A stretch of 63,218 bases of DNA, the filler included, from Kipferlia bialata (Eukaryota), in the NCBI GenBank assembly GCA_003568945.1. It is 5 parts of 5 records of this genome, joined end to end, with 100 filler letters (N's around TTAATTAATTAA, not from the genome) between each part and the next. Parts side by side here need not be neighbours in the genome. Positions count along the whole stretch, not along the records: positions 54,821 to 59,668 come from BDIP01000501.1; 4 more parts are not named here. The stretch is one strand, 5' to 3'. Shown here piece by piece: positions 8,816 through 60,311 of the stretch. Position 1 is the first letter of the stretch. Each line of letters begins with the position of its first letter. Both the position numbers and the translations under genes were made by a program. The notes under the pieces were generated by a model, which was not told the origin of the DNA, made no database searches, and saw nothing but the letters and a program-made list of their open reading frames with translations.

Positions 8816-9131
8816 GGCTGGGGGTGAGACAGACAGAGAGAGAGAGAGAGAGAGGGAGAGAGGTGCGGTCAGGGTCATAGGGCATGGCTGGGGGTGAGGT
8901 ATAATGAATTGTAGTAAAGTATATGGGTATATGGGAATCTCTGTAGATAGGGAAACAGAAAGAGAGGGAGAGGTCAGGGTCATAGGGCATGGCTGGGGGT
9001 GAGGTATTGAATAGAATACAAAACACATTTACTATCAGCAGTAAGGGAATAATTGTATACAGGGAGAGAGACAGAGAGAGAGAGGTCAGGGTCATAGGGC
9101 ATGGCTGGCGGTGAGACAAAGGGAGAGAGAT

Positions 9132-9962: not shown

Positions 9963-10364
9963 CCCGAGGGTATATCGGGCTCACCACCCAGGAAACAACC
10001 TCACGTAGTTCGTACTCGGCTTATAAACTGATATATATACCGACTTAAGAAGAGACTAGGACCAGCGAATATCTCACCCTACACCCCTAAGCCAAAAAGT
10101 AGAATGTTCGTGAGCGAACATTATGTTCGGAACATACAGGTGCATCGACCAGCCAATGATTCACATAGACTATTTGACCTAATGACACCGCATACCACGG
10201 AGCAACCTCATTTAATCACAAGACACACAACACAAAGTACACATAAACAACCCTCACCCAAGAAAGGGGGCTAACACACATACATACAAGGTGGTATCAA
10301 AACAACGACACCTAATGACGACTAACATACACAATACAATCTCACTCCCAGAACGGGACTCCCC

Positions 10365-26984: not shown

Positions 26985-27343
26985 TGCAGGTCAATGTTGT
27001 GCTCAAAGACTAGGTTCACTGTCGCAGCCCTTACGGACACTGGAGGGATGGCGTGGCTATAGCAGTGGCGTTAACAATACAGGTGGCAGTGCGCGGACGT
27101 TGTTGGGATCTGTGAGTCTTGTGCTCAAGTGGGTCATCCGAAGAGAGGAGCTAGGACATTCTCTCAGGGCTGTCTCACTGGGCAAAAGTGTGACGAGCTT
27201 TGCGGCTCAAGGTTTTTGGTTAAATAAACCCTTTTCGGCTTCTACACCCTTTTCCAAGTTTCTTGCCATCTTTCTGAGAATGGCTACTCAGTCTTCTTTG
27301 TGCACTTTAGTCAGCCTTACACACTTGGTAAAGACATACGGGC

Positions 27344-29649: not shown

Positions 29650-29851
29650 ACGGGTACAGCAGGGTGTGCTGCAGGCATAAAGATAGTTACCCCTTCGGAC
29701 AGGTCATTCAGTCATTATATTGTCACCTAGATTCATTTGGAGTGAGCATTATAGTATAAACATATGTGAATAAGACTGTCAGACACGTTCATGTGCTGGT
29801 CTATTGAGTCAACGCTGTCCATGGCACTCTTCAAGTGCCCAGGTGGCACCT

Positions 29852-31079
29852 CTACCCCGTGACCCCCCCCAGCACCTGTGCCTCCACTCTAACTGTGACA
29901 TCGGACACCCATGCGGCAGTCTCCTCAGACACAAACACAGGGTTGGCACCCGCAGTCCGGCGGTTGGCCTGGGGTGAGGGGAGAGAAAGGGTGCATGTCA
30001 TACATAATAATATCCGCATAGATTTATGCACTCCCACCCACCTGCTCCTTGATGGAACTGAACCGGCCCTCGATCTCCTGGGGGTTAGGGAGAGATATAG
30101 GCAGCAAATACATGTACATGTGATAGACCAGAGCCCTACCTTGGTGAATCCGTCATAGACACTAGGCATGGACTGAAGGGCCTGGTATAGGGCAGCTACC
30201 TTCGGTAAGGAAAGGGAACATGGAGGCACTCAATGAGAAGGATCTCCTAGATCTGTCACTGTCTACTGTGTATATGTATGTATGTGTGTGTATGCATGCG
30301 TACCTGGTAGGGCAGGTACTTGTGTGTGGGCATGTCCAGTCCACCCCTGAGGGCACGGGCATAGTCCAGAACCTGGCAGGGAGAGAGGGGTTCACACAGA
30401 GAAGGGAGAGAAGAGTAGACAGAGAGAGAGACAGAGAGAGAGACAGCACCCACCTTGTTCCTCTGAGCTGTCTTGATGAGAGGGTGTCCCTCCCTGGGAG
30501 GGGGGCACTCCACACCCACAGCCCGGCACACAGTGGGGAACCTAGGGGGAGAGAGAGAGAGAGCTAAAAGACATCACAGTCAACCCCCACAGGTAATAGT
30601 GATATATATCCCGGGCAGCCACTGTCACACCCCTGCCTAGTTAATGCCCTGCCCCACCTGTTTCTGAGTGATGTGCCTAGTGCCCTCTCCAGTGCCTGGT
30701 GGGACTCAATCCCAAACATGGCCAAGTCTAGGGCAGACAGGGGGACGCCGCTCTTCATCATGGTCTGGGGTGGGGCAGGGGGGGGGAGATGGGAGTGGGG
30801 GCCGTTAGTTGAAAGTTGGAGGGGTATGAGGAGAGAGAGAGAGAGAGTCTATATACATATGGCTCTGAGCTTACATACCTCCAATGCATGCAGTGATGCT
30901 GTGGTAGTGTGTCCACCAGAGGTGGGTCCATGAAGCTGACAGGTAACTGGGTCAGAGAGATACAAGTAGTAGCTGTAGACAGTGGCATCAGCATATATAG
31001 CACTCCATGACTGTGTGTCACCTGGTCTGGCCAGACACGGCAGATAGGGCCGCAGCGTCACAAGGGGACCTCCAGACAT
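29852..31079 (-). CDS. Hypothetical protein, about 8 exons
   Basis: Regular short exons with YTNACCCCAG acceptors run from MSGGPLVTLRPYLP to ...VEAQVLGGVTG*. No family was recognised. Confidence 0.6.
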
Positions 31080-31397
31080 CTCAGTAGACTTGTGTGTGTG
31101 TGGGTGTGTGTGCAAACAATGTGGCTGAAGCCAAAGGTGAAAGAGAAGGTGACACTCTTTGAGTCACAGAGAAGCCCCACGCGTTTCAAACGAGTCGGAT
31201 AGAATCAGAGAGAGAGAGTGACTCCGACACTGTCAGTGACAAGAGTCAAATACCACGGTCTGTGTTGATCATCCATTTATTAAACACAGAACACACACAC
31301 ACACACAACACAATAAATACTGATCACATAAGGTAACAGTGAGTAACAATTCTGAATAACGATTGACGAACACCTCTCTCTCTCTCTCTCTCTCTCT

Positions 31398-33425
31398 CTA
31401 CCTCTGGCCTGCCCTTGCACTAACGGCAGCCACAGCATCCAGGACGTCCCCTCCCTCGACCCCTGCCCACAGCATGGGACGGGCCTGGGGTGGGGCAGAG
31501 GGGGATCGATATAACACATAGGATATAGTATTGTATATATATATATATGCATCTGCTGCCCCCACCTCCTCTATGACCTGCTCCACCGCCCTGTCCGACG
31601 CATGGCTAGACACTGCGGCCAGGGCATCGCCCAGAGGGGTCTCATACCTAGGGGGTCAGAGAGGGAGGGGGTATGGTCTGAGTCAGTACTAGGCCTAGTG
31701 TATATATGTGTGTACCTCTGCCCCCCTATGAAGTGTGACACATGGGAAGCACCACAGGCCTCAAGGGTCTTGAGAGCGGTCAGGAATCCTCTGGGATATA
31801 AGGGTGATGTACGTGGGTCAAAAGGAAATCAGAGTGGAAACATCTCCCTAGTGCAAATAGTAAGGTATTCTACATGCTATATGGTATACGCCCCGAACCT
31901 TCCGACGTGCTCAGGTCTGTGGGCATCAGAGGATAGGACCAGGGGGATGCCACGCTCCACTGCTGCCCTGGGGTGAGGGAGAGGGAGGGGGTGAGAGTGA
32001 GAGTGAGAGATAGATGAAGGGGACCTCTTCGTCCAGACACCCCACATGCCCCCCTAACCTGATGATGGGCTCCGATGGGAAGTGGTCCTTGAACCCCTTG
32101 GCGACCGATGATGTGTTGATCTCCACAGCCACCCCAGCGGCCTTGATGGCGTCAAGACAGGTCAGGACATGTCTAGGGGTCAAGGGAGAGGATATACACA
32201 CATAATGTATAGGTATCAGAGTTAATATATCCATGATACTGAGTATGGTAGCGATAGTCCCGCACCTGAAGTGTGCATCCTCAGGTGTCAGAGTGAAGTC
32301 GCGGTGGCCAATGGATATCATCCTGGGGGTGAGCATATTCAAATGATGAATAATAAATAATACAATCTGTGCCACACAGTATCTCTCTCGCTCCCACCCT
32401 CTGTACCTGAATCTTATGAAGTCAAGGTGGGCCATCACATTGAAGAGACCGGAGGAGGCAGCCTCACCAACCTGTGCGTGAGAGATAATGGTTGTGGTCA
32501 AACACTTATGCAGACATAGAGAAAGAGAGAGGGAACACCGGACACACCTGGGAGAAGTATGCCTCTACACACCCATCCACATCTAGGGCACGCAGCCTGG
32601 GGGTGAGAGAGATATGGATACATATATATGGAGAGCACACTACTCATGACATGACATCTGACACGCACCTTGCCTGCTCCTCGGGCTGGTTGAAGTGGAC
32701 GCTGCCCAGCACACAGTCAAGGCATGGGGTGAGGGGGGGGGGGAGGGGCAGGGTATGGACTGTGTACCTCCAGGTTGAATGTGGTTGTGATGTCTGGGTA
32801 CATCTGTGCACACAGCTCTCTCTCCCTAGCTACCACATCCACAAACGAAGGCCACTCCTCCATGGTCATCCTGAGGTGGGGGGGGGGATAACAGAGGGTG
32901 CAATTAGATACAAACACACCTGTGCTTGTAGTCGTACTGCTCCGGCATGGGACAGTGGCAACACATGGCAACTGAGTGTAAGAGGGAGCAGAACAGGGGC
33001 AGTGAGTGTACGAAAGAGATGTGACCGTCACACACAGGGAAACAGCCAACATACAGGAGAAACAGCAAGGGAATATGGTAGCAGCTCGAATGCCAATGTG
33101 AGAACACTTCACAAGGATGTATGGCGGAGGAGGACACTTGGAGAGTAACAGTCAGAAATGTAGATATCCACTCATACGTTCAGACCCGATTTCATCCATA
33201 GAGCATGAAATTTGCATATGTGTGGCTGTACAATATCATCATGCATGGGATGACGATCAGCTGCCGCAGGGGAAGTAAGGACAGCCACTACACTAGGTAT
33301 ATTTGATCTCACGTAATCTCACCTCCCTTCAGCCCACGGGCATTTGCTGCAGCAACCACTGCACGTGGCATGTAAAGAGCTGCATGACGGCAGAACAGTG
33401 TGTGTGTGTGTGTGTCAAAGACCAT
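31398..33425 (-). CDS. PHP-domain histidinol-phosphate phosphatase, HisJ/HisK family
   Basis: The PHP metal motifs appear in order: MVFDTHTHTLFCRHA, GLKGVAMCCHCP, FNLE, DCVLGSVHF, FNVMAHLDFIR, AVEINTSS, FPSEPII and SSDAHRPEHVG. One junction near 32717-32770 is anomalous. Confidence 0.85.
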
Positions 33426-33613
33426 TGCCTTGGTGGAGAGCACAACACATGGAATCCTAGTTGATTGGTTCATCAATCAAAAACTCTACACCCTTTGGTG
33501 TTTCTGCTTCCACTCTATCTACACCCTTTGCCATCGGTCGAGTGACTGTACAGTTAGCTACACATCGTCCTTTCTACCCCAAATACGACCCCACAGCAAC
33601 ACTCACGGTCGCA

Positions 33614-34283
33614 ATGGGAGACGTACGTATAGTTCTATAGCTTTTATAGGTTCCTGGTGCCTCTAACCCCCTAGATTTTCAGCATGAATGGCTCTGCCAT
33701 TGTTGGCATGGCCGGCAAGGACAGTGTGGCCATTGCTACTGATCTCCGCTACGGCAACAGCTACCAGACGATAGGAACGAATATGAGGAAGGTTTTCAGG
33801 CTGTCAGACAACCTGATGGTGGCCCTGGGAGGCCTTGCCACTGACATCCAGACCCTGTCTGCCAAGCTGAGGTTCCGTGTCAACCTATACGAGCTGGAGG
33901 AGAAGCGCCCAATGTCCCCCAAGGTGGCCACTCGCATGCTGTCGCAGCTGCTGTACAAGCACCGGTTTGGCCCATTCTTTGTGTCCCCTATTGTGGCTGG
34001 ACTGTCCAAGGAGGGGGAGCCCTGGGTGGCCTCCATGGACTCCATCGGAGCTGTGTCGGATGTGGATGCTTACTACTCGGAGGGGACTGCTGCTGAGACC
34101 CTCATGGGTGCTTGTGAGACATACTGGAAGGAGGATATGACCCCAGAGCAGCTGGGTGGGACTGTGGAGAGGGTTATCCAGGCTGGTATGGGTAGGGATG
34201 CATTCAGTGGATGGGGTGCAGAGGTGTGGCTCCTCACATCCGAGGGACTGGAGGTGCGGGAGGTGAAGACAAGGCAGGATTAA
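33614..34283 (+). CDS. PSMB3: 20S proteasome subunit beta type-3
   Basis: Exon 1 encodes MGD (33614-33622), followed by an intron at 33623-33674. Exon 2 reads IFSMNGSAIVGMAGKDSVAIATDLRYG...GLATDIQT...LLYKHRFGPFFVSPIVAGL...GRDAFSGWG...KTRQD*, the PSMB3/PUP3 signature. Confidence 0.95.
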
Positions 34284-34715
34284 TTAGATTGACTCGCAGG
34301 GTCACCTGCCAGTATCCAGTCATTTATTCATTTCTTCTGTGTCACATAGGTTATGTGTATGGTGGGTTCTCTTGGACCCCGATACAGGGACAGACTGGAA
34401 GAGAATTATTGAATGTATATCATTTCCAGTATTCCGTACTGTGACTCGCAGTGTGTAAGAAAATTATAATAACGTGAGGCTATGCATGTGCAAGCTATCC
34501 CGCTCCCGATACTGAAACCTGAGAGAGTCCCTTACTTGAAACCACCCAATGGGAGAGAGGGAAGACCTCTTTAAGAACTATTATAGAGGAAATGCGACAG
34601 ACAGTCATAAGAATATAAGGCAAAATGCAGAGAGCCACCGAAACCACACAGCAAACACCATAACAAATCCAATCCGACACTTACATCATTTTGAATCTAT
34701 TAAAGACTCAACACA

Positions 34716-34913
34716 TTAACGAAGGCGCTTAGCCTCACGCTCAGTCTCCATGAGAGCGAGGTAGTCGTTGACGCGCACGGGTCCGATAACGTTACGGATG
34801 ATGGTACGGTTGGGGTTGTCGACAATGCCAACACGGACCTGGGTGATACCTCCCCTAGAGCCAGTACGGCCGAAGATCTCAGTCACACGTGCAAGGGTAG
34901 CCTCCTCAGACAT
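34716..34913 (-). CDS. RPS28: 40S ribosomal protein S28 (eS28)
   Basis: Sequence [28 protein letters not shown]...[30 protein letters not shown]. The ATG immediately follows a CCCAG acceptor, indicating a 5' UTR intron. Confidence 0.97.
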
Positions 34914-35433
34914 CTGGGAGGTAAGAACACTTAGTGAAAGACAACATAAACACCACAATCCACCAAATGGCCCTACATCATGCGCCACCATCTCAAAACG
35001 CCCCATCTCCACCCTACACACAGAACACCCACGAGCAACACTCCCCCGACCACATTACCGACCTACACACCTTGTTTCTGCTGGAACGGTACGAAAAACA
35101 GGCCCCAGTCCCATATCCCTTGGCTCGCCTCTGCTCTTCGCTACAATGTCCGATTCTCCTGTCGGAGATTGTGCTAAAAGTGAACAAATCCAAAAACTCT
35201 CGCTCAGATGCAACTCCAGATTGAGTTCTAAAAGGGTTTGTAGCAACTCGTTGGCAACGGTTGATTTTCATGCAATATCGGTTCAGCAATCGTTGCAGAG
35301 TGAACCCAACGACATTGTCAACAGTGTATAAATATCATGTGACCAGGTCTCATTCACTCTCTTTCTACCATCATACCAAACACGCATTTAGCCAGAAACA
35401 GACATTACAAAGGGTCACAGTGGATATCTGCCC

Positions 35434-36392
35434 ATGGAAAGGGAGTCTGAGATGCAGTTGACTCTACTCTTCTTTCCTTCAGTGATTCCCCCGCTCTCTG
35501 TAACACTTGAGGGGACAGACACTGTCGGTGACATTAGGAGTGCGGTGAGTCATATTCGGTAATCCAGCACTACTAAATAGTCATCCAAGCAGTGTAACCA
35601 CAGCACAAGCGGCATATCATTGTCAGTAATTCGGTTCACTGTGTATGGCTGTGACTATAATGACAGATGATGCTCATGTTCAGGCCTTAAATGCTCTTCC
35701 TGCCGACCACCAACGCGTGAGGGTAGTGTTTGAGGGTCGTCCACTGACTGATACTGAGGCAACTCTGGAAGCTGTCCATATGAGGTCGGGCGAATTGTTC
35801 TTAGAGTGTGTTCCCACTCATTCTTCTCTTCTCACCTCAGGAACGAAGGCAATGTACACATATTTGTCCAGTCTTCCAAACCAGTCGGCGAAGGTATGTA
35901 TATTTTCCTGGTCCTCTTGATATTAGCGACTGAGTGGTTGAGAGAGAGACATATAGTGTAGACCTTAACCCCCAGCTGCAGACGGAGCAGTGGTGGAGCC
36001 TGGTCGCAACAGGGGCCTACAGACCTTTTTGGAGAGCGGTGTTGACAGGCAGAGTGTGTTGATGATGAGACTCACCCTTCTGGCCAGGACTGGGTACCTC
36101 ACGGAGGAGCAGGTACAGACGTTGACTCATCGCCATTATTGTTCTGTCTTCTCTCATATTATGATTCTCACCCGCCTAGTCCTCCATCTTCAGTTCCAAC
36201 GGGGTGGTGACTGCTGTGGCCCAGTTCGAGGCACCAGGTGAGAATACAGGAATAGCTTACTCTAGCACCACACTGTGATTCGCTGTCTATTGTTTCCATG
36301 TATCGTCTGTGTCTAACATAATAGGGGAGGCACAGATAAGGACATATCTCACCCAGCACCTACCCGAGAGGTACAGAGACATTCCCGCTCAG
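35434..36392 (+). CDS. Ubiquitin-like domain protein, DSC3/DUF2407-like; truncated at contig end
   Basis: It has a Ubl pattern, DTVGDIRSA...QRVRVVFEGRPLTDTEATLEAVHM. This is followed by RGLQTFLESGVDRQSVLMMR, which resembles the Dsc3 motif RGFDRLxxxGFSxxEVxxLR. Confidence 0.55.
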
Positions 36393-36707: not shown

Positions 36708-39700
36708 GTGTGCGGGTGCTGTCTTCCACAGGGTCAGTGATCAGATGAGGAGCACAGAGGTACGATGGATACTGTGTGTGATATATATATGGTATATTGT
36801 TATACAAGGCGCTGTATGTAATAAGGCTATATATATATATATATATATATAAGGTGACCAGATGAGGAGCACAGAGGTATGGCGCATACTGTATATGTTT
36901 TAATAGTAGTATTTATATAGTCGATATATAGCGCCTGATCTTCATCGAGAGATTGTATTCTTTTGGTCCATTGATGACTGTTCATATTCGTACATCACTC
37001 ATCTCTAATTGTCAGGGCCCCATGGACGATGACCTTACCCAGGACAGCTCCCTTATACTGTGGCACTTCTTGGGTATGTTCATATGTTAGAGTATATGTG
37101 TATATTCTATTATTATATATATACTATTAGTATTTCTATATACATGAATTAGCTCCATCATACTGTGACACTTCCTGGGTATGTGTGTGTTTGATACCAT
37201 ATATATACCATATATTCTTTATGTTACTGATAATCATTGTATATACTAACACTCAGGTCAGAGTGCCCGTGACGTGTGTGAGTCCTTGTATGAATGTATA
37301 ATGTAATGTATAATAGTGTATATGTATATATATATATGTGAATATATACACAGCCTTCTCACTCCCAGGCCAGAGTGCCCGTGACGTGTGTGTGTCCCTG
37401 TTGTCCAGGGGTGCAGACTCATTCATACCAGACAACGCAGGCCTCACACCTCGGTACGGGAGGGATTCATTTGCTTCGCATTTATGCTACATTACCTTCA
37501 ATTGATATATACAATTCAATGTTGGTACAGATACTGACTCCCAGTGACTATGTTGTCCTCTTCCTCAAGGGTCAGCGGCTTCTATCAGGACCAGACTTCG
37601 AAAACCAGGTATATATGCATGTATATATATCAAAGTATATATAGAGAGAGAGAAAGACAGAGAGAGGGGGGGGGGTATACGAGGATAGCGGTTCTTCTCC
37701 TCTTCTTACCCCCAGCCCATCCCCACTGCTGACAACGAGTACTCAACCGGACAAGAACAGTCAGGTAGTGAGTAGCATTACGTTCTAGTGATACCCCAAT
37801 AAGATGGTAGTTGTGTATTTGGAACATTCAGTTGAGTTTGTGTTTGTGTCAGTACCGGTGCCAATGTGTATACGGTATTTGTATACTGTGGGATATTTGT
37901 ACCTCAATATCACTCTATTAACGTTGTTGAACCTACTACTAGAGAGACGTACGCATTGTCTCCTTCCTCACCCCAGTCAACACTGAGGCCGTGCTAGTCA
38001 GACTGTACCCTCTGCTCCTGCAGCAGAAGGGGGCCAAGAAGACATTCAAGGCAGCCGTGACTCAGGTAGGCTTCTATAATAGTATATATTTGTATATATA
38101 TACAGAGAGAGAGAGATGACATTCAAGGCAGCTGGGACACATGTAATGCTGGATACATACATTACCCCAATATTCCAACACGTGTCTCACCCAGGCCTCC
38201 AAGTACCTCCCCCACCATGTCTCCACACAAATATTCATGCTCATTTACATATATGTACTATAATAGTATGTATAGTGTATCTATCTAAGTGAGACTNNNN
38301 NNNNNNNNNNNNNNNNNNNNNNNNNNNNNNNNNNNNNNNNNNNNNNNNNNNNNNNNNNNNNNNNNNNNNNNNNNNNNNNNNNNNNNNNNNNNNNNNNNNN
38401 NNNNNNNNNNNNNNNNNNNNNNNNNNNNNNNNNNNNNNNNNNNNNNNNNNNNNNNNNNNNNNNNNNNNNNNNNNNNNNNNNNNNNNNNNNNNNNNNNNNN
38501 NNNNNNNNNNNNNNNNNNNNNNNNNNNNNNNNNNNNNNNNNNNNNNNNNNNNNNNNNNNNNNNNNNNNNNNNNNNNNNNNNNNNNNNNNNNNNNNNNNNN
38601 NNNNNNNNNNNNNNNNNNNNNNNNNNNNNNNNNNNNNNNNNNNNNNNNNNNNNNNNNNNNNNNNNNNNNNNNNNNNNNNNNNNNNNNNNNNNNNNNNNNN
38701 NNNNNNNNNNNNNNNNNNNNNNNNNNNNNNNNNNNNNNNNNNNNNNNNNNNNNNNNNNNNNNNNNNNNNNNNNNNNNNNNNNNNNNNNNNNNNNNNNNNN
38801 NNNNNNNNNNNNNNNNNNNNNNNNNNNNNNNNNNNNNNNNNNNNNNNNNNNNNNNNNNNNNNNNNNNNNNNNNNNNNNNNNNNNNNNNNNNNNNNNNNNN
38901 NNNNNNNNNNNNNNNNNNNNNNNNNNNNNNNNNNNNNNNNNNNNNNNNNNNNNNNNNNNNNNNNNNNNNNNNNNNNNNNNNNNNNNNNNNNNNNNNNNNN
39001 NNNNNNNNNNNNNNNNNNNNNNNNNNNNNNNNNNNNNNNNNNNNNNNNNNNNNNNNNNNNNNNNNNNNNNNNNNNNNNNNNNNNNNNNNNNNNNNNNNNN
39101 NNNNNNNNNNNNNNNNNNNNNNNNNNNNNNNNNNNNNNNNNNNNNNNNNNNNNNNNNNNNNNNNNNNNNNNNNNNNNNNNNNNNNNNNNNNNTACCTGCT
39201 GCACCCAGCATATCGGGCATGGGGGCCGCATTCCCACAGGTACTAATGTATATATACATATATAGGTTCATACCAATATATATGTATATATATATATATG
39301 GTGTATGACCTACCTGCTGCATTTCTGCTTGATCTACCTGCTCTACCCAGCATATCGGGCATGGGGGCAGCATTCCCACAGGTATTAAGTATTGGACATT
39401 GATTATTAATTATTACACATAGTAGATTAGAGTTATGAACAGTAATAGAGTTACGATAGTTAGGTGTATGTGACTTGTTTGTTCCATCTTAGAATGAATC
39501 TTACAACAGGCCGGCCCAGATATCCGGTCCTGTCGGGAGCGCCTGATCCCCACCCCCGAGCCAGAGATGCTCAGCACACGCACACTCAGAGGTAGGGGTG
39601 TGTATGATTCGCAGACTGCTGACTATTCATCTTTCGTTACTCACTCAGTTTCCACGTTTGAAGTGTATTCTTCTATGTCATTGTAATCAATATATATATT

Positions 39701-42700
39701 TCTAAGACTCATAACCAGCTGCCCGTCCCATAGCCCCCCTATCCCCCGGTGCAGTGGCCACCATAGCCACATACAGAGTGCGGAGGCTGATGGCACTCCC
39801 TGATAGGTATATTGTGTATAGTATATATATATGTGTGTGTGTGTGTGTATATATGTGCCACCATAGCCACGTACAGGGTGCGGAGGCTGATGGCACTGCC
39901 AGACAGGTATAAATAGTATGTATATATATATAGTACACCCAGTATATATAGATATATGATGATTGTTGTGACTTATCGATCTTACCCTTTCAGGTTCTTC
40001 AAGCCGCCCCTGGTGTCTGACGACTCCGAGTCGGAGGGAGACAGCATATACAGTTCCTACGGCACTCCTTCTAGTCCATCCAGCACCTCTAGCACACCCA
40101 GGGGTGGGAGGGGTAGGAGAGGACCCAAGGGTAGAGCGGCCCTAGGCCTTTACGTGGACTCTGAGTTTGAAGGGGAGGGAGAGAGAGAGTTTGAGAGAGA
40201 GAGAGAGTCTGATGAGAGTGGTATTGATCGTCAGAAGAGGGACTCTGGAGTGAGGCTGCTGAGTGGAAAGGTAGGGGTTGTGTCCTCGTTTGGAACAGTG
40301 AACCTTTAACTACCATATCCTACGACATGGATACATCTCGAAATGTATAACAGCAGTGATGTAATGCTGGTATATGTATTATGACTAAGTATACTTGTCA
40401 CATACTTATGTGTAGGACAGACAGGCCAGACAGTCCAAGGACATCATGCGGAGGTTCACATCAAGGTATGTGTCTTGCCATAATCGTATTTCATCTCTTA
40501 GTGACTGCATTGTGTACCTTTCCATAATAGCATACCCACAAGCCATTCGTTAGGTCCCCAGCACACTCACTTCTATTGAATCATTGATAGTGTTAACCAC
40601 TACCCCCAGAATGATCTCTGCTGCGGGTACCCCTGTCCCTGAGAATGCCATTGCATCAGATAGTGAGCTGGAGGCTAGGGCATCCAGGTATATGGGACAT
40701 ATCATACACTATAGATTGATATGTATTTACATATATACGGGTATGTCATTGCATCGGACAGTGAGCTGGAGGCTAGGGCATCCAGGTATCATAGTGTCTG
40801 GAATTAGCCTCACTGTTGTTGATGACACTGAGGTCAACGCTGGGGTATTAGTGTGATGAGTGGTGATGTTTCCTATTCCCATTCCTGTAACTGTTCACTT
40901 ATACCCAGGGTCCGTCGTGCCGAGCTCTTTGCAGCCAAGGTCCGGAACCCAGGTAAAAGAGTACAAGGAGTTCCCATATGCACGTGTTTTTAAGAGTCTA
41001 CAGTGTTTACACTCCCTCACCCTCAGGCCTAGCCTTCTGGCCCCTGGCCCCCTCGTGCTCTCTCCCAGTGGCGGAAGGGTCTGATACACCATGCTTCAGA
41101 TACAGGGTGGGTGTATGTTAAATAGATATATACACATGTATATATATATATATATATTGTGTCTCTATATTCTCTGCCCGGGCTTCCTATACAGGGTGGG
41201 TGTACATTGTATTACCTGTCCAGTCGATATATCGGATACTGTATCACATACTCCTCTGACTGGTAGGTGCGTGGCTCCACCCTTGGTGAGCAGCTGTCCC
41301 ACCTCATGAGACCAGACGGAACAGCAACAGGTATATTTATATGTGTGTATACATGTATGTATCTGTATATATATAGTCCTGGTGGGTATAGTGTATATGG
41401 TGTCCCACCTGATGAGACCAGACGGAACAGCGACAGGTATATTTATATGGGTGTATACATGTATGTATTTGTATATATATAGTCCTGNCAGGTATATTTA
41501 TATGGGTGTATACATGTATGTATTTGTATATATATAGTCCTGGTGGGTATAGTGTATATGGTGTCCCACTTGATGAGACCAGACACAACAGTACCAGGAA
41601 TACACATATTACTTAACAACTGTATATGTCGGCAATATAGTACATAGAGTATTATGTATACTTGTCTGACCTCAGGATCCTTTGGTGTAGTTGGTGTTGG
41701 ATCAGCATTCTGTGGCAGAGACTTCAAGGATGGTGAGTGTCCATCATTTACCCTTGCTATATACCCTTGCTTCCGCCATTTACTTCACCAGTCAGAGAAT
41801 GAAGATATGTCACTCTACTTCGTTGCTCTCTCCAGGTCCTGAGGCTCTCTCTAGTTAGTGTGTAGGTTACAATTGTCATTATATATATCTTACCCCAGGC
41901 CCTGACGCTCTGTCCTGGGAGGACCTCCCCGATGATGGGTGGGCAGAGGCAGACATGGAGACGGAGAGAGAGAGAGAGAGGCAGCTGGAGGAGGAGGACG
42001 CCATGGAGAGCGAGCTCGAGCGGGAGATGGAGAGAGAGATGGAGAGGGAGATGTTAGGTGGTGATCTCGGGCTCGGTGGTGACGATATTGCCTCCAACCT
42101 AGCTGCTCTCGAGCACTTTGGGGCTGATATCACGGACTCTGAGCCAGAGACCCCAGAGGGTGCAGAGGGAGAGAGCGACACCAGCAGAGAGAGGGAGAGA
42201 GAGAGAGCTGCCTCCCATGAGAGGGAGAGAGAGAGAGAGAGTAGGGCAAGGGCGTCCAGTCTCGCCAGTGAGGGGGGCTACATGAGGGACCTGGCTGCTG
42301 AGACAGACAGTGTGTCCACTCTCACCATGGCACTCGGGAAGCTCTTAGGTACGCGTATATACATATACATGTGTGTATGTGTGTGTGGTTAATTGTTTGT
42401 GCATCTCCTGTATGTATGTTTCACTGTCTCTGATACCAGGCACCGCCTTCAATGTAGGTGGTCTCCGTGCTCCCTCCAACATACCCTCCGGCCACAGGCC
42501 CCCTGGGTCTCTATTCGACTCTCTGGCATACAGTCTGGCACCTATCAGGGGTGCCATTGGAGCCCTCTCCCCCTTTGTCCCCGTTCTCCCACCCCTGCCT
42601 TTCATAGAGGGCGACACTACCTCAGTCAACGAGGGGAGGGGAGGCAACGAAGGGAGTGAGAAGGAGGCGGATACATCTCCTGCGGACGAGGATGATGGGG

Positions 42701-49213: not shown

Positions 49214-52001
49214 GGTGTGCCTGTGTATCTTCCATTAGATAGGGAGTTACCAGCCTGGCACAGGTACTTCAGCCTCAACTATTCTCGGTCACTCTACATC
49301 TGTTACTACTGTAATTATATCAGAGTGTAGATACAGTCGTCTATTTAAGCAATGGTTGTGTTTGATGACCATTTACTTGCAAACCCGATGTCCTTTGTCT
49401 CTCTCTTTCTCTCTCACACCTGACAATCCAGGTTCACCTCTGCCACTGAGCCCCTCCCTGCCAATGTGGTCATTGACATGGGGCAGAAGATATCCCTTAT
49501 CAGGTTGGTAGCTCCAACCCCGTCTAGTGTATCCTATATGTATACAACTATGGTCATTAGCACGAAGCAGTATATTCCTGAACATGTACCTCCGACCCCC
49601 CGACACCCCACCTTTAACACACCCTCCACTGTCTCCATATATATGGTCTGCTCACCTTATAAATCCATTCACTTCTCTATATGGATGTCTCCCCTCCTAT
49701 GTCCCATTCTATGACTAAATGCATTTACATCGTACGACACAGATACCTAGCCTTCTACCCTCCGTCCCTCCTATCTCCCACCTCGATTACTACAAGAGTA
49801 ATATATATTCCCCATATAGGCACGGCTTCCTAGTAGTCTAGCCCTTCTACTTACCCTATCTCACTCATTTCTCGTCCTCTATTCCCGCCTCTAGACGAGG
49901 CATCTTCCCCCACGAAGAGTCCAATCAAACCTTCTCTCTCTCACACACACACCCGACCCCCGTCCTTTCTCCCTCACGAACTGTATACTAACCTCAGACT
50001 AGGCATCTTCCTCCACGGAGAGTCCAACCAGAACCCAGCCCGTGTCAGATACGAGGTATCCTCGGTGTGTATATAAATTGTCAGTAATTGGAAGGATAGT
50101 CATTGTGTATGGGGACCATGTGTATATACTCTAACACCTAGGTCAGTGTGGAGGCCCCTGAGGATGAGGGTTTCGAGTGGGTCACATTGGTGGACACACC
50201 CCTGCCACAGGTAAGCACAGGTTCTTACTCGGTTGTACTATGTGTCAATATGTGTTTCATACTACTGTATGTTCCGAGCGACTGGTGCACATCCAACTCC
50301 CTGAGGAACTGTACTACGTGTCGTGCTATCCCCCTGCGGATTGATGGCCTCTCTCCCCTATTACTCTCCCCATGCATGACTCTCTAATCCCCAGAGAGGA
50401 GGAGCGTTCATGTGGAATATCGTCGATATTCCAAATATCGAGGACAAGCCATGTTACAAGGTCAGCATCCCCATTCGTTTTGTTAACATTGTGTTTAGAG
50501 TGTGACGACATGTGGATGTTCTAGAGAGAGTCACATTCTCTCCTTCATCACCTTAGCGTTACGTCAAGTACCCTATTTCAGCACATATCAATGGTGATAT
50601 GAATGCTACTTACTTTCTGCAACTCCAGCAACGCTCCAATGCATAGTCACTTTCTCTCGCTTACATGCAGACTGCCCGCTATGTCAGGTACACCATTGTC
50701 TCCAACTATGGGGGTTCAGGTGCATACACCACCAAACTCTACCTATTCGGTACTCCAGCCTTGTCACTGCCCACCCTGACAGAGCCTCGGTCCACACTTC
50801 AGGTCCGTTCTAACCACTCTATCTACAAATCTATCCATTCATCAATCACACATCAGGGCCCTTTCAGTTGTGCAGACTCTATGTGTGGCCAGGAGTTCGA
50901 CACAGAAGGTAAAGCCTCTCACTGACTCTCTCTATGTATATCTTCCTTGAACACAGACCATCGTGAGTTGCCTCACACAAGCAGTCTCTCTCTCTCTATC
51001 TCTCACACACACTCCCTCGACATATACATATGTGCTCTTAGAGTAGGTGACCGTGACCTGCACCACACGGAGGTCCATGGGGGCAAGCCCTACCGGTGCG
51101 GAGTAGCGCTATCAGGTGAGAAGGAGAAACTTTCACTCAATTAAGTCATTAATCAATCCTCCTCACTGTCGCAGTGGGTCACTATGAGGCACGTGCTCAC
51201 CCACAGGTGGGAAGAACAGTCTGTCAGGCACTGGACGGGGTAGAAGACTGACCACCTGTCCCCAGTGCTTTGGAACAACAGGTTAGTATTCATTCCACCC
51301 CGTTCCTGTAACCCTGTCTTTCACTCCCCCAAACCACCCCAAGCCATGACGATCATTGGGGCGTATGTAACATCTCTCTATCATTAGTAATGATTCATTA
51401 CGACTAGTGCCTAGTATTGCTGCTGTATTTGTGTATATTCGTGACCTCAGAGGAACTGGCCGCTCACATGCCTCTCCACAGATTCCGCTGTACCCACACC
51501 CAGTGCTCAGACAGAGAGAGTTTCCTCACCCTGGCAGGTATCAATCAACATATACGTATTCAAGAGCCACTAGCAGTGATATCCGATGATTGTGAGTTTG
51601 AGTCAAGCTTTGACCAGAATGGTCCTTCTACTCCTGTCCGAAGCATTCTCACGCACACAGTCTCTGTCAGGTTCTCCCATTCCCTTGTATATGTGCCACA
51701 GCTCTCTCTGCATCTAACCCTAGCACTCCAGGAGCACATGAAAGAGGTGCACAGTGTGTGGCAGTGCCCTATTTGTAATGCGTGCGTTGCTTTCTCTTTC
51801 TCTTAATGAAACTCTTGGGTGAACCGCCCAGGGAAACAGTGGTACTGGAAGACAGATAACAACTATTCCTTAAAAATTCTAGGTTTTACTCATTGGCAGT
51901 GCAAGGATGACCCTAGAGGAGGCACTATTCCACATGAACCAGGCTCACGAGGTATGTAGTAAGGTGTACCATATTAGTACCGAATAACTCTCATTCAGTA
52001 G
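48623..52001 (+). CDS. Discoidin/F5-8 type C (galactose-binding-like) domain plus C2H2 zinc-finger protein
   Basis: The spliced N-terminus reads SFSSQYHHESRALNLL...CWFTSATEPLPANVVIDMG...NPARVRYEVS...WVTLV...TARYVRYTIVSNYGGSGAYTTKLYLFG. It is followed by the fingers FSCADSMCGQEF..LHHTEVH, FRCTHTQC..SFLTLAALQEHMKEVH and WQCPICNAARMTLEEALFHMNQAH (C-x2-C-x12-H-x4-H). Confidence 0.75.
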
Positions 52002-54651: not shown

Positions 54652-54982
54652 GGTATGTGTGCAAGATTGATAGAAAATGAATCCCCCCCCCCCCCCCCCC
54701 CCCCCCCACCCCCACCCCCANNNNNNNNNNNNNNNNNNNNNNNNNNNNNNNNNNNNNNNNNNNNTTAATTAATTAANNNNNNNNNNNNNNNNNNNNNNNN
54801 NNNNNNNNNNNNNNNNNNNNCCAAAAAACCTGGGGTGTAAGGAGGGGCCCCCCCCCCCCCCCCCTTCCTTTGTATCTGGAAGAGTCTTTCCCTCAGGACC
54901 CACTCCACATCCTCTCCCTCAGTCTCTCTCTGAATATTCACTCAGTTAATTTACACCCTGTATACATGTTCTGATCCCCCAG

Positions 54983-55278
54983 GACCCACTCCACCTCCAC
55001 ACACAGACGGGACAACACACGGGGGACATCATCAGGTAGTCATACTATATATATATATATTCATTGTATGTCAGACTCTATGTGGCATGTGTAGTATTAT
55101 GTGTACATAGTGTATACCCAGACGGGACAACACACGGGGGACAGTATCAGGTATACACATTGAATATATTGTCTATCAGACTATAGTGGTACATAGTCAG
55201 TCTGGGTCTAGATTCTCTCTCAATGTATATATTGAGCGAGTTAACATTAGGCCTAGGTCGCACCTTCCAGATGAGTGC

Positions 55279-55317
<39 letters not shown>

Positions 55318-55627
55318 CTTTCTCTCGATTCATGTATATATATTTTAACATATAGGTCTTGGTCGCACCTTCCAGATGAGTGCCTGTGGCTCCTGAGGTT
55401 AGGAAGGGAGGGGTGTATACATCATAAGGAGTCATATAGGAGGTGTACCTTCTCTAGAGAGAGAGAAAGAGAGAGAGAGGCCCCACTGTGAAGATGATTG
55501 CTTCGTGATATTACATCCTTCCCTACTCTTCTCCTGTAAGAGGGAAGATAGAGAGAGAGAGCGTATCTGTGAGTGGTTGATGGTACATGGCCTAAACCCC
55601 TATTGTAGGGGAGCCTGTGCTGGACAC

Positions 55628-55658
<31 letters not shown>

Positions 55659-55726
55659 ATAGAGAGTTAATGAGTGTAATGAATAGAGTTCTGAAGCAAT
55701 GTAGGGGAGCCTGTGCTGGACACTAA
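54983..55726 (+). CDS. 3' fragment of an unknown gene with echo-rich introns
   Basis: The exons DPLHLHTQTGQHTGDII|RSWSHLPDECLWLL|RGACAGH each have partial duplicate copies. The reading frame is not certain. Confidence 0.35.
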
Positions 55727-56145
55727 AGGACAGTGTGTGTGTGTGTGTGTGTGAAAGAGAGAGACAATATAGAGAGAAGACATAGTTTGACACAGAATAG
55801 TATTGTTGGGAATACTGAGAGAGGGGAACCTGTGCTGCACACTCAGAGGGAGAGAGAAAGAGAGAGAGAGGGACAAGAACAGAGAGAATAGAGATGAGAC
55901 AGAAGAGTACTGTTTGGAATACAGAGTGTTTCAAGTATTACCGATATCAAGTTTCCCATTATCAAAGGTCATACTACTACCGGCATAGCATTGACATCCA
56001 GGCAGTGCTATCAGCTAATGGGTCCACCTATATACGACATTCATCATTTGTATGAACTCTAAGTTCTTTGTCATGACTTCTCTCTCTATTCACACAAAAG
56101 GGCACAGTAAATAATGAATGATGTTATATATATCAGTTGTCAGTC

Positions 56146-56191: not shown

Positions 56192-58710
56192 TAGTCCAGG
56201 ATATCCGTCACAGCAGCACTGAGGGTGCGCTGAAGTCCTGGAATAAGGGTCTAGCAGAGTAAGAAGGTCTCGCCAATACTATAATCTATATATATGCACA
56301 CTATATACCTGGCATTGATGTGAGTCTGGACACACTCCCAGGGTCAAGGAACTCAGCAACGCCTATGGGTGAATATAGGATGTGGAAGGGGAGAGGGATG
56401 CGGACAGAGGGGCAAATATCTAGAAGAGTAAAATAGTCCATATGCACACATATATTTACACTATGCACACTATATACCTAGTAACAACAGCACATCGTGT
56501 GTCATGGATGATATGGATGGACTCCACCCCCCACACACAGGGGCAGTCACTCTATATACATATTCATACTATATATATAATACACACATATATATGTACA
56601 GAATACATATATCTACCTAGTAACAGCAACACGTCATGAGTGAGTGAGGATATACTGGGACTCCACCCCCCACACACAGGGGCAGTCACATCTAGGACCT
56701 TCACCTGGGCCTGGGAATTAGTGGAGTAGCTATAGTAATAATATCATAATTATGGGTGTAGTGGAGGTATTAAGGGTTGAGTGAGTATATGTAGTACCTT
56801 GACTCCTAGTATTGGCTTCTTGAGCGAGTATCCGTACTGCTGCAGCATGTCTGTGTCCTTGGTGCAGGAGGGGGGGACAACATCGCCTATATATTAGAAT
56901 ATACCAAAGTGTAAAGTGTATACAGTATGTGTCCATAGTATATATGTTGGAGCATGTCTGTGNNNNNNNNNNNNNNNNNNNNNNNNNNNNNAGTATATAT
57001 GTTGGAGCATGTCTGTGTCCTTGGTGCAGGAGGGGGGGACAACATCGCCTTATGTTAGTATATATCAAAGTGTATAGTGTATACAGTATGTGTATCCATA
57101 GTATATATGTTGGAGCATGTCTGTGTCCTTGGTGCATGAGGGGGGCACTACATCGCCTGGTATTAGTATATATGCATAATATATACATGCATAATATATA
57201 CATGTATATGGTATACTATGTGTATGTGTATATGATTGAGGGTAAGTTAGTGTCCTTGGTGCAGGAGGGGGGCACAACATCACCTGGGTGTTAGTATACA
57301 TAGTATATAGAGTACATATACATGTATATATGTCGTATATATATGCAGCATGTCTGTGTCCTTGGTGCAGGAGGGGGGGACTACATCACCTGATGTATAA
57401 GTATATATGTATATATATACATGTATATATATGTGTATGGTATACTTAGTATATGTGTACATGATTGAGGGTATGTCTGTGTCATGGGTGGAACTACATA
57501 TGTGTATATACCTTCGTAGTTACTGCTACACCGCATGTTGCTACTGACTGTCTGCCTCTTGTCCATGTCTAGTATAGATATATCATATATAAATACTAAT
57601 GCCCATATATATAATTATATATACACATATGTGTACACTCATACCTTCATAATTGCTACTGCATCTCATGTTTGATGACACTGTCTGCCTCTTGTCCATG
57701 TCGAGTATGGGCAGATGAAGAATATATATATTGATATATAATAATACATACTGTATAGTATATACCTTCATAGTTACTGCTACAGCGCATGTTACTAGAC
57801 ACTGTCTGTCTCTTGTCCATGTCGAGTATATAGTCATGAGTATACAATCAGAATAGTACCTTCATAATTGCTACTGCATCTCATGTTGCTAGACACTGTC
57901 TGTCTCTTGTCCATGTCGAGTATGGGCAGGTGGGACCGGGTCAGATAGGGGTTGATACTACTGTTAGTAATAAATACATATAACTGTATATAATATATGA
58001 TATGCAGTAAATACAATATATAATAGTCCAGTATGGGCAGGTGGGACCGGGTCAGGTAGGGGTTGATACTACTGTTAGTAATGCATATATATATAATTGT
58101 AGATAATTCATAGTACGCAATATAGTATGTATAATCAATGTAGTATATACAGTATATATAGTATATTGTATAAATAATATATAGGGGTGATGCTGGAGTG
58201 AGCAACATTAAAAAATATATACATTTATACAAATGTATATAATAGAGAATATGCAAAATATAGTATGTATAATCAATGTAGTATATAGTATATAGTATGT
58301 ATAGTATATAGTGTGTAAAATCAATGTAGTAGTCTAGTATGGGCAGGTGGGATCGGGTCAGGTAGGGGGTGATGATACAGGTAAGACACGGAGATAATGT
58401 GAAGGATACACACGCAAAGTGAATATATATATATATACTTCACATATATAGAGAGAGAGGACTAACAATTACCTGAACACACTGTCCCCAGACAAGGTGC
58501 CCTTCCTAGTTACTAGGGACCTCTCCTGCACAAGAGTGGCACTGACTGACATTAGGGGGGTAGAGAGAGAGGAAGAGAGAGAGGGCTCTCCTGCACAAGA
58601 GGAATATGCATATATACTAACCTAGTTTCTCATCACTCTCCGTGTGTCTCCTTGTCTGCATCAGTGCACCTCTCTTCTGTAGCAAAGACATGGCTGGTAT
58701 TAGGGGTGTA

Positions 58711-58741
<31 letters not shown>

Positions 58742-59278
58742 TATACGGGAAAGAGACATGTCTGGGTGTTAAGGGTGTAGAGAGAGGGAGATAGTAACTG
58801 AGACTGCATTGTTGTCATAATCATATACATTGGTAGAGATATATAGATAGTCTATGGTACAAGGAAAGTATATATAGTTATGGACATGCAATACACACAT
58901 GCATACCTGACTCTAGCAATGGGTCGTTGGGGTCAGGTGTCTCCTTGTCATCTGGCACAGAGGCGCCCTTGGCAAAGGCTACGATAAGGGTATGAGAATA
59001 CGAAGATAGTACGTAGAATAGCATATACAGGTCCAAAAATGAAATGAAAAAACCTTCACAATAGTCCACTAGCAATGCCCCACTGCTGAGTAGTTCATAG
59101 ACCCAGGCATTGATGTCGTTGGCCAGGTACAGACCGCTGATGCCTGGGGTGAGTATATATATACTTACGTACACTTGTATATATGTATCTACATGACCAC
59201 ACATACCGGCTAATGGGTGTCTGGGCGATGCCCTCAAGAAGAGACTGTCCAGAAGGGAGGACTTGATATGCCTTGGGT

Positions 59279-59311
<33 letters not shown>

Positions 59312-59392
59312 GGAGGAGATACCACACAGAATTAACACTCACCGCATGTCCACCGACTCAAAGAGCTCTGCCCCCACTCTGCTGTGCCTGAC
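56191..59392 (-). CDS. Hypothetical multi-exon protein (5' partial) with heavily echo-filled introns
   Basis: In-frame exons: VRHSRVGAELFESVDM, GISGLYLANDINAWVYELLSSG, SINPYLTRSHLPILDMDKRQTVSSNMRCSSNYE, GDVVPPSCTKDTDMLQQYGYSLKKP, DVTAPVCGGWSPSISSLTHDVLLLL and GLQRTLSAAVTDILD*. Confidence 0.65.
56845..58365 (-). repeat. Stacked partial exon/splice-site duplications ('echoes')
   Basis: Five or more copies of the DVVPPSCTKDT acceptor edge, four copies of the ILDMDKRQTVSSNMRCSSNYEG donor edge and three copies of the PYLTRSHLPILD edge, separated by TA-rich spacers. Confidence 0.9.
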
Positions 59393-59824
59393 CTGGGGTG
59401 AATAAAGGGTGTAGGAGGATGGAATAAGGGTGTAGGAGGATGGATTATGGGTGTAGGAGGGTGAACAAAGGATGTAGCATGAATACAATATACTATATTG
59501 GGATGATGCATTTCTCTCTTTGTAGTAGGTAGTCTTCTTTACGGAGCGGGGTTATCTATAGAGTGATTGAATAGAATAAATGGTGAAATTGAAAACAATG
59601 TGGGGATATTCACACAAGAAGAACGTACCTTCCACCCCCTTCTGACCGTGGAGTCTCTATGTTTAAAGNNNNNNNNNNNNNNNNNNNNNNNNNNNNNNNN
59701 NNNNNNNNNNNNTTAATTAATTAANNNNNNNNNNNNNNNNNNNNNNNNNNNNNNNNNNNNNNNNNNNNGTTGGGGGGGGGGGGGGGGGGGGGGGGAGAGA
59801 TGAAAGAATCCAGTGGTAAGTCAC

Positions 59825-60311
59825 CTGGCGTGCTCTGATGCGCTCCCTCTCGGCTGCTTCCCGGGCCTTCCTGAGGGTAAGAGTGAGTGAGTGTTCATAT
59901 ATACACTGAGATGGTACATGCCAGCTTATGTCCTGCGATACTCTAGTCTGTATAGGCAGACGAGTCCTGTACCTCTCGTCGTCCTCAGCCTTCTTCTGCT
60001 TCTTGGCGGCCACGGCCTGCCTCTGCTCGTCTAGGGAGGCCCGTCTGGCAGCATTGACCCCGTGCTGGGTCAGATACCTGGCAGTGAGGCCACAGAGAGC
60101 ATACACATATATCGATAGGATGTATTAAGCCAAGGGTGGGGTAGGGGGGGGGGCGAGAGCGGGAGAGATGGGGGAGAGAGAGAGAGAAAGACTCCCATCC
60201 GAGTCACCTTGCAATGTAGTCAATGGCATCCTCAGGCCGCCTCTCCACAACCTCTGCAATAGCACGAGACAGGACGGGTCCGACCGTCTCCTTCAGGTAC
60301 TCTGCGTTCAT
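59825..60311 (-). CDS. Dpy-30 motif protein (DYDC/radial-spoke-like) with coiled coil; truncated at contig end
   Basis: MNAEYLKETVGPVLSRAIAEVVERRPEDAIDYIARYL matches the Dpy-30 motif YL...V...L..GL.EV...RP.DPI.YLA.YL. Confidence 0.8.

What the first reader, a model, noticed from the sequence alone, without database searches (positions are those of the whole stretch)
57509..57930. Non-spliceable intronic exon copies recoded only synonymously: four versions of one 21-codon peptide
Seen: after the real exon's donor (about 57860), the intron holds three more copies of the exon 3' end plus GT donor (about 57763-57830, 57642-57712 and 57509-57575). All four encode ILDMDKRQTVSSNMRCSSNYE with no amino-acid change, but with different codons. 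Real: GTG TCT AGC AAC ATG AGA TGC AGT AGC AAT TAT. Copy 1: GTG TCT AGT AAC ATG CGC TGT AGC AGT AAC TAT. Copy 2: GTG TCA TCA AAC ATG AGA. Copy 3: GTC AGT AGC AAC ATG CGG TGT AGC AGT AAC TAC. The changes include multi-nucleotide TCN<->AGY and AGR<->CGN switches. For the two copies nearest the exon I found no AG acceptor directly upstream. Established: neutrally decaying duplicates accumulate more replacement than silent changes. Inference: these pieces evolved under protein-level selection elsewhere and were inserted recently. Candidate mechanisms are capture of deeply diverged alleles by one-sided homologous invasion resolved in microsatellites (introns archiving population variants), a gene-conversion template library, or an unknown splicing or template-switch use. 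I am not aware of a description of this.
Basis: partly seen in the sequence, partly recalled or inferred. Interest (0 to 1): 0.93.

Follow-up and report, generated by a model that had tools for sequence, protein, structure and literature searches.

The report
Introns storing pieces of other alleles
Introns of this free-living protist (Kipferlia) hold rows of half-exon copies that spell the same protein in different codons; some match the cell's second, very different gene copy better than the exon beside them, so they are likely left by recombination or repair between alleles and would record past genetic exchange.

Summary
Confirmed and extended. Four versions of the 21-codon peptide exist, 5-15 nt apart with no amino-acid change. 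DNA contigs from a public run join them in tandem, so they are not stacked haplotypes. The gene matches Kipferlia bialata KIPB_002836. A second expressed copy (KIPB_008906) is identical at 251 of 252 residues, differs densely at silent sites and has a 50-nt intron here instead of 973. Copy 3 is 4 nt from that second copy but 12 from its own exon, and a neighbouring echo carries the second copy's only amino-acid variant (Met). Three genes hold 53 echoes; dN/dS is 0.054 in this gene and 0.16 pooled, below the 0.5 expected from in-place duplication. Support is weaker in the other two genes. Four codons show three silent states, so more than two source lineages contributed. Best reading: exon-limited exchange between deeply diverged alleles deposits half-exons, and splicing uses the outermost sites. 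Allele versus paralogue, and the repair route, are not shown. The scan noted similar echoes in a sea urchin, explained there by one-sided selection; that null fails here.

The parts
57860..57957 (-). Live exon (INPYLTRSHLPILDMDKRQTVSSNMRCSSNYE), AG..GT
   Evidence: Matches P0001; RNA contigs 9, 11, 12 lie on it with 0 differences
57766..57829 (-). Donor echo 1: exon 3' part plus GT; 6 codons changed, all silent
   Evidence: bridged to neighbours by DNA contigs 4 and 5
57645..57717 (-). Donor echo 2: exon 3' part plus GT; 4 codons changed, all silent, including AGC to TCA
   Evidence: DNA contigs 3 and 4
57512..57575 (-). Donor echo 3: 12 nt from the live exon, 4 nt from the second gene copy's transcript
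   Evidence: record 10
58026..58068 (-). Acceptor echo of the same exon (AG kept); 2 silent changes
   Evidence: DNA contigs 6 and 7
58332..58374 (-). Outer acceptor echo of the same exon (AG lost); 3 silent changes, 1 replacement
57344..57389 (-). Acceptor echo of the next exon (AG kept)
57250..57283 (-). Acceptor echo of the next exon; the second copy's intron end aligns here, 12 intron letters included
   Evidence: joint 57295-57504
57108..57156 (-). Acceptor echo of the next exon; 5 silent changes, 0 replacements
57000..57048 (-). Acceptor echo of the next exon; 2 silent changes
56945..56962 (-). Part of a further acceptor echo beside a 29-N gap; more collapsed copies likely
   Evidence: contig 1 at depth 683 against about 400
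57473..57490 (-). Decayed inner fragment of the next exon (1 replacement)
56798..56886 (-). Next live exon (DVVPPSCTKDTDMLQQYGYSLKKPILGVK)
   Evidence: loose letters of RNA record 9 match it
56617..56710 (-). Following live exon, carrying Leu at the one site where the two gene copies differ
56478..56550 (-). Donor echo of that exon: 13 nt and 10 codons changed; the only replacement is Leu to Met, the residue of the second gene copy
56194..59658 (-). Host gene, 12 modelled exons, orphan protein P0001 / P0002

Best explanation
The intron carries tandem half-exon copies with their splice sites, and they likely come from other working alleles of the same gene, deposited by recombination or break repair between homologous chromosomes that can likely pair only in exons. 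Shown: tandem linkage; a second gene copy at equal DNA depth, expressed, almost identical in protein, densely different at silent sites, with a short echo-free intron; one echo closer to that copy than to its own exon and one carrying its private residue; the main transcript spliced from the first donor to the last acceptor. Inferred: the second copy is the homologue of a diploid; introns of the two alleles are too different to pair, so an exchange that begins in an exon and ends out of register (one-sided invasion with a non-homologous end, then unequal exchange among existing echoes) leaves a half-exon plus splice site from the partner. Deletion products lose a splice site and would be removed; duplication products survive because splicing ignores inner sites. 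Echoes would be gained and lost much faster than alleles coalesce, so their differences from the live exon are mostly inherited silent allelic differences, with decay added in older ones. Some echoes are then re-duplicated in place.
For: Linkage: DNA contigs 57685-57824, 57800-57886, 57441-57671 and 57915-58059 have 0 differences at depth 395-440 and cross the spacers. Second copy: DNA joint at depth 410 with a 50-nt intron (8+30+12 letters); RNA records 10 and 13 at depth 57 and 88 against 78 and 97 for the window's copy; P0002 identical at 251 of 252 residues. Copy 3: 4 differences to RNA record 10, 12 to the live exon; informative sites lie between 8:0 and 11:3 for the second copy, P 0.004 to 0.029. 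Met echo. At least 16 nt differ between the copies over 158 coding nt that could be compared, none changing a residue. This gene: 45 of 48 changed codons silent, dN/dS 0.054, P 4e-11 against 0.5; codons private to one echo 11 silent of 13, P 3e-4 against 0.5; 4 of 4 three-state codons all silent. One echo per exon side only: P 2e-5, and 0.011 without this gene. Literature: two k-mer peaks suggest diploidy (PMC5874029, passages); crossovers in a hypervariable fungus fall in exons (PMC4209137, abstract); fornicates lack NHEJ and Rad51A and keep two Dmc1 paralogues (PMC8516963, passages).
Against: The second copy's DNA could not be fetched, so synteny and allelism are untested and its letters in this exon are known only as counts. 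Only 6 of 75 complete BUSCO genes are duplicated in the published assembly, and no second copy of gene g1 was found, so deep two-copy divergence is not genome-wide. The signal is weaker elsewhere: dN/dS 0.26 (g1, P 0.009) and 0.23 (g3, P 0.06); private codons 14 silent of 26 in g1 (P 0.08) and 0 of 2 in g3; three-state codons all silent in 0 of 3 (g1) and 1 of 2 (g3). 52 of 156 changed codons overall change the residue, and 10 of 53 echoes are identical to their exon, which fits plain in-place duplication. Echoes are not independent. The flank matches to the second copy (8 and 12 nt) are near the splice consensus and weak. The DNA run may be the sample behind the assembly. No other isolate was found.
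Confidence: 0.62

Rival explanations
1. Echoes are themselves under purifying selection because they are recycled: array contraction or gene conversion often turns an echo into the live exon end, so each intron is a reservoir of working spare exon halves.
For: Near-zero decay in this gene even for inner echoes; further echoes are no more decayed than nearest ones, pN/pS 0.16 vs 0.22; GT kept in 20 of 21 and AG in 24 of 26 anchored echoes.
Against: Splice-site retention is about what pN 0.05 predicts without selection; two echoes carry stops and several are clearly decayed; conversion frequent enough to purge replacements should also erase silent differences unless diversity is very high, when this merges with the best explanation (inference).
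Confidence: 0.15
2. The second copy is a paralogue or a homeologue of a hybrid, and echoes come from ectopic exchange between these two lineages.
For: Silent divergence of about 0.4-0.5 per site is over twice the 0.20 reported for Schizophyllum commune (PMC4576712, abstract); both copies are annotated as separate genes on separate scaffolds; synteny untested.
Against: 251 of 252 residues identical in a protein with no detected relative; the cluster has 2 members only; four codons hold three silent states, and at one Leu codon two echoes carry states found in neither present copy, which two lineages cannot supply without decay.
Confidence: 0.12
3. Plain in-place tandem duplication across exon-intron junctions; only the live exon is protected, giving a mild silent bias (dN/dS about 0.5).
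For: Layout is that of direct tandem repeats; 10 of 53 echoes are identical to their exon; g3 does not reject 0.5 by the NG86 count (P 0.06); earlier finding e1-9861148 reached this reading in a sea urchin.
Against: Rejected for this gene (P 4e-11; 0 of 20,000 simulations for copy 3); cannot make copy 3 closer to the other gene copy than to its neighbour; spacers after the four donors are unrelated beyond the first letters.
Confidence: 0.06
4. Echo codons reach mRNA through unusual splicing or template switching, which keeps them under selection.
For: Donors and acceptors are intact, several with ACTAAC-like branch motifs; the upstream echoes lie in one stop-free frame with the live exon; the species has a reduced spliceosome (PMC6679479, passages).
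Against: RNA record 9 matches the live exon with 0 differences and joins across all three donor echoes to the live next exon; record 10 differs from copy 3 at 4 sites and continues in letters also present in the second copy's DNA. Contigs drop rare forms, so minor use is not excluded.
Confidence: 0.03
5. Assembly artefact: separate haplotypes stacked in a row.
For: Short-read draft with gaps; a 29-N gap and a collapsed repeat lie in this intron; no single contig spans the whole stretch.
Against: Independently assembled contigs at uniform depth cross each spacer with 0 differences, and the other haplotype appears separately as a short-intron joint.
Confidence: 0.02

Closest known systems
Junction-spanning intronic minisatellite with silent pseudo splice sites (human F7 intron 7, 37-bp VNTR; PMC1557585, abstract seen)
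   Same: Repeat unit crosses the exon-intron boundary; downstream donors are intact but the most upstream one is used; copy number differs between gene copies.
   Different: F7 pseudo-sites are identical in sequence. Here units have unrelated spacers, differ by silent recoding, occur on the acceptor side too and in half the introns of three genes, and match another allele.
Recombination between hyperdiverged alleles confined to exons (Schizophyllum commune; PMC4209137 and PMC4576712, abstracts seen)
   Same: Alleles too different to pair outside conserved sequence; exchange falls in exons.
   Different: Describes equal crossovers, not half-exon deposits in introns; silent diversity 0.20 genome-wide against about 0.4-0.5 at one locus pair here, and apparently regional.
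Intron gain by tandem genomic duplication (PMC4974935, search listing only)
   Same: Short tandem duplication inside a gene that splicing removes.
   Different: No new intron arises; an existing intron grows by about 100 nt per echo, and the donor is another allele.
Silent gene-conversion cassettes (trypanosome VSG, Borrelia vls, chicken Ig pseudogenes; recalled, no call)
   Same: Unexpressed partial copies beside an expressed gene.
   Different: Those diversify the protein; these leave it unchanged, and no conversion event was observed.
Tandem exon duplication and mutually exclusive exons (recalled, no call)
   Same: Neighbouring exon-like copies with low dN/dS.
   Different: Echoes have one splice site only and were not seen in transcript contigs.

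Membership tests
Junction-spanning minisatellite (F7 IVS7 type) | Unit spans the exon-intron boundary in direct tandem order | tested here: met
   21 anchored echoes downstream carry exon ends, 26 upstream carry exon starts
Junction-spanning minisatellite (F7 IVS7 type) | Pseudo splice sites normally silent | tested here: met
   RNA joint runs from the live donor across three echoes; rare use not visible in contigs
Junction-spanning minisatellite (F7 IVS7 type) | Units near-identical, fixed period | tested here: not met
   Spacers 30, 48, 69 nt and unrelated; exon parts differ at 5-15 of 63 nt
Junction-spanning minisatellite (F7 IVS7 type) | Copy number varies between gene copies | tested here: met
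   973-nt intron with 9 echoes against a 50-nt intron in the second copy
Mutually exclusive duplicated exons | Each copy is a whole exon with acceptor and donor | tested here: not met
   Half-exons; no AG at the start of copies 1-3
Mutually exclusive duplicated exons | Copies appear in mRNA | tested here: inconclusive
   Main contig uses the live exon; contigs drop rare forms
Intron gain by tandem duplication | A new intron position is created | tested here: not met
   Both gene copies have an intron at this junction
Silent conversion cassettes | Templates change the protein | tested here: not met
   45 of 48 changed codons silent in this gene
Silent conversion cassettes | Conversion into the expressed copy observed | not testable with these tools
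   Needs clones or isolates
Hyperpolymorphic species (S. commune type) | High silent diversity genome-wide in a population sample | not testable with these tools
   One locus pair only; no genome held, no other isolate; 6 of 75 BUSCO duplicated argues for a regional pattern
Allelic pair (against paralogues) | Same chromosomal position, one copy per homologue | tested here: inconclusive

The most novel reading that the evidence does not exclude
In AT-rich domains of this genome, Dmc1-only, mismatch-tolerant repair between alleles whose silent sites are near saturation keeps depositing and recycling half-exons, so each intron is a dated archive of several alleles from the wild population and one cultured strain holds direct evidence of repeated outcrossing in a lineage where sex has not been observed, with allelic silent divergence above any value I found reported for a eukaryote.
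Probability: 0.4. Interest if true: 0.9.

Novelty: new variant of a known kind. Interest (0 to 1): 0.78.

Why it matters
[quoted passage not shown] Undecayed echoes from more than two allele lineages on one chromosome would be a record of repeated exchange, readable from one strain. Second, two expressed copies that differ at 1 of 252 residues yet at roughly 0.4-0.5 of silent sites, in a protein with no detected relative, is extreme; echoes in the same gene add serine codon-set switches. It makes questions on diversity limits and codon-set switching testable. Third, it gives a route of intron growth (about 100 nt per echo) tied to repair in a lineage without NHEJ and Rad51A. Fourth, a reduced spliceosome skips several intact upstream acceptors, a natural test of splice-site choice with built-in silent barcodes. 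Fifth, some gene pairs in the published gene set may be alleles counted twice.

Tried and rejected
The protein atlas did not answer. Reads were laid on 56992-58270 only; the live next exon lay outside, so RNA record 10's 3-difference match to the echo at 57344-57388 is not evidence of closeness and was dropped. No RNA contig lay on copies 1 and 2 (depth 0 in 6 of 6 bins from 57594 to 57851); this is not counted as evidence of silence. One search listed no holder on record as RNA; X2 is a guess, taken as RNA because of its GT-AG joint. Pfam: 0 families for 2 of 2 proteins. Representative search: 2 hits, itself and P0007, a tandem-repeat protein matching 12 of 30 residues, rejected as summed chance hits. 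Metagenome scans: 0 of 56 and 0 of 21 candidate stretches confirmed. No protein record found for gene g3 (0 of 850 candidates), so its model is manual. Exact look-up of the proteasome ORF failed. PMC12783039 (passages) was not relevant; one search returned unrelated papers. One site count used a wrong frame and was redone. Microhomology at echo ends could not be tested without parental sequences (contexts listed). Inverted echoes were not searched exon by exon.

Full report
Setting. The window is eukaryotic DNA in pieces joined by N-linker spacers. The finding lies in a minus-strand gene of 12 modelled short GT-AG exons. A 42-aa query over the exon found 1 protein among 1 candidate: KIPB_002836 of Kipferlia bialata. 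Another exon of the window matched KIPB_002770, whose contig length, 18,197, equals the window's first piece. The organism is thus named by these records. The host protein has no Pfam family and no credible relative among 1.84 billion representatives.

Observation. The four versions are there. They differ pairwise at 5-15 of 63 nt with no residue change in 6 of 6 pairs. The same 973-nt intron holds 3 donor-side and 6 acceptor-side echoes, and the upstream intron 2 more.

Is it real DNA? Contigs of run X1 lie on the stretch with 0 differences at depth 395-440 and cross each spacer (records 3-7). The live exon and copy 2 share their last 31 letters, so no contig reads through both; the order follows from the contig ends, and no listed piece spans the whole stretch. 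X1 may be the sample behind the assembly, so this tests the assembler, not other strains. Table 8 showed 15 pieces and withheld 38.

A second gene copy. X1 also gives a joint at depth 410 in which an exon end like copy 3 is followed by a 50-nt intron. Run X2 gives two transcript forms. Record 9 (depth 78) matches the live exon exactly and joins with GT-AG ends to letters of the live next exon. Record 10 (depth 57) has the same length, shares its first 30 letters, continues as a whole exon, and fits copy 3 best with 4 differences; the live exon differs from copy 3 at 12. The protein cluster has 2 members, identical at 251 of 252 residues. The one difference, Leu/Met, is the one replacement among 10 changed codons in the echo at 56550-56478, and the echo has the other copy's Met. 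From loose ends and counts, the two copies differ at 5 of 30 nt in the upstream exon, at 9 or more of 98 in this exon and at 2 of 30 in the next, all silent: 16 or more differences over about 33 silent sites, some being multi-base switches. These stretches were not chosen at random.

Selection test. I modelled three genes (g1 from P0006, this gene from P0001/P0002, g3 by hand) and took ungapped exon-to-flanking-intron matches scoring 14 or more, leaving out low-complexity ones (number not counted). This gave 53 echoes, with echoes in 25 of 48 introns; shuffled exons gave 0 of 520. Two unanchored g1 hits may be chance and were kept. Pooled over 606 codons dN/dS is 0.16; this gene 0.054, g1 0.26, g3 0.23. 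The null from earlier finding e1-9861148 (only the live exon protected, about 0.5) is rejected here (P 4e-11), weakly in g1 (0.009) and not in g3 (0.06). By whole codons the P values are 4e-17, 0.003 and 0.03. Codons private to one echo are silent in 11 of 13 here, 14 of 26 in g1 and 0 of 2 in g3. Three-state codons are all silent in 4 of 4 here, 0 of 3 in g1 and 1 of 2 in g3. So this gene is the clean case; elsewhere decay and in-place duplication are mixed in (10 of 53 echoes identical).

Distribution. Intron length rises about 100 nt per echo (Spearman 0.79; medians 107 and 270 nt). An annotation-free census put echoes in low-GC, TATA-rich stretches and none in 10-18 kb or 20-36 kb (rho -0.75 with GC over 32 bins); this is partly circular because spacers are TA-rich.

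Mechanism. A dead copy cannot collect 6-10 silent codon changes and no replacement, and an in-place copy cannot be closer to another gene copy than to its neighbour. The pieces therefore came from working copies. Two lineages cannot give three silent states without decay, so there were more than two sources; population alleles are the simplest. I infer exchange between homologues that pair only in exons and resolve out of register. Crossovers in exons are reported for a hypervariable fungus (PMC4209137, abstract). Metamonads lack NHEJ, and fornicates lack Rad51A and keep two Dmc1 paralogues (PMC8516963, passages). That Dmc1 tolerates mismatches within base triplets and favours homologues is recalled, from no call. 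One-sided invasion and unequal crossover cannot be told apart here. Splicing to the outermost sites is shown for the main contig; upstream-donor choice is known for F7 (PMC1557585, abstract), while skipping intact upstream acceptors suggests exon definition (inference).

Against. Allelism is untested. Only 6 of 75 complete BUSCO genes are duplicated (PMC5874029 supplement) and g1 showed no second copy, so the divergence looks regional. Recycling of echoes, or a hybrid origin, remain open.

Literature. Ten searches of open PubMed Central papers and bioRxiv found no description of allele-derived half-exon echoes; most subscription journals are not covered and most hits were seen as listings only. 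The genome paper's main text has 0 hits for 'heterozyg', 'allel', 'duplicat', 'polymorph' and 'meio' and notes diploidy from k-mers (passages, plus a term search of 3 supplement files). PMC6679479, PMC8516963 and PMC12783039 were seen as passages; PMC1557585, PMC4576712 and PMC4209137 as abstracts; supplements of these six were not opened and may bear on repair-gene lists.

Verdict. The parts are known kinds (junction repeats, unequal exchange, hyperdiverged alleles); their combination as an intronic allele archive is a new variant. Interest 0.78.

Noticed in passing
window 807-9117 (-): Gene matching KIPB_002770 (source label: GmrSD N-terminal domain, PF03235) with 31 echoes; its annotated first exon seems to run through an acceptor echo and a microsatellite, so echoes can corrupt gene models.
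   Followed up: partly
window 36708-42348 (+): Unannotated-by-search gene with 9 echoes; the one at 39857-39906 has 5 changes, all silent; an unscored likely acceptor echo near 41837.
   Followed up: partly
window 57834-58439 (-): A 201-codon stop-free frame runs through both upstream acceptor echoes into the live exon, so use of an echo acceptor would not truncate the protein; TA repeats lack stops, so chance is plausible.
   Followed up: no
window 57923-57915 (-): Upstream echoes end, and two downstream echoes begin, at the same exon spot (ATA CTN GAC), which resembles the TATACT of the introns; a possible breakpoint hot spot.
   Followed up: partly
window 54980-55890 (+): Further echo-rich gene fragment on the opposite strand, not modelled.
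   Followed up: no
window 56963-57136: A contig at depth 683 with 4 differences and 3 gaps suggests more acceptor echoes collapsed in the 29-N gap.
   Followed up: partly
window 10000-18200 and 20000-36000: GC-rich, echo-free stretches; they include an apparently intronless proteasome beta-like ORF at 33675-34283 (label from recall). Possibly homozygous or low-divergence domains.
   Followed up: partly
window 59830-60311 (-): Exons for a Dpy-30-like N-terminus (label from recall) beyond a linker; relation to the finding's gene unknown.
   Followed up: no
window 19356-19545 and 49888-50035: Isolated echoes in two other genes.
   Followed up: no
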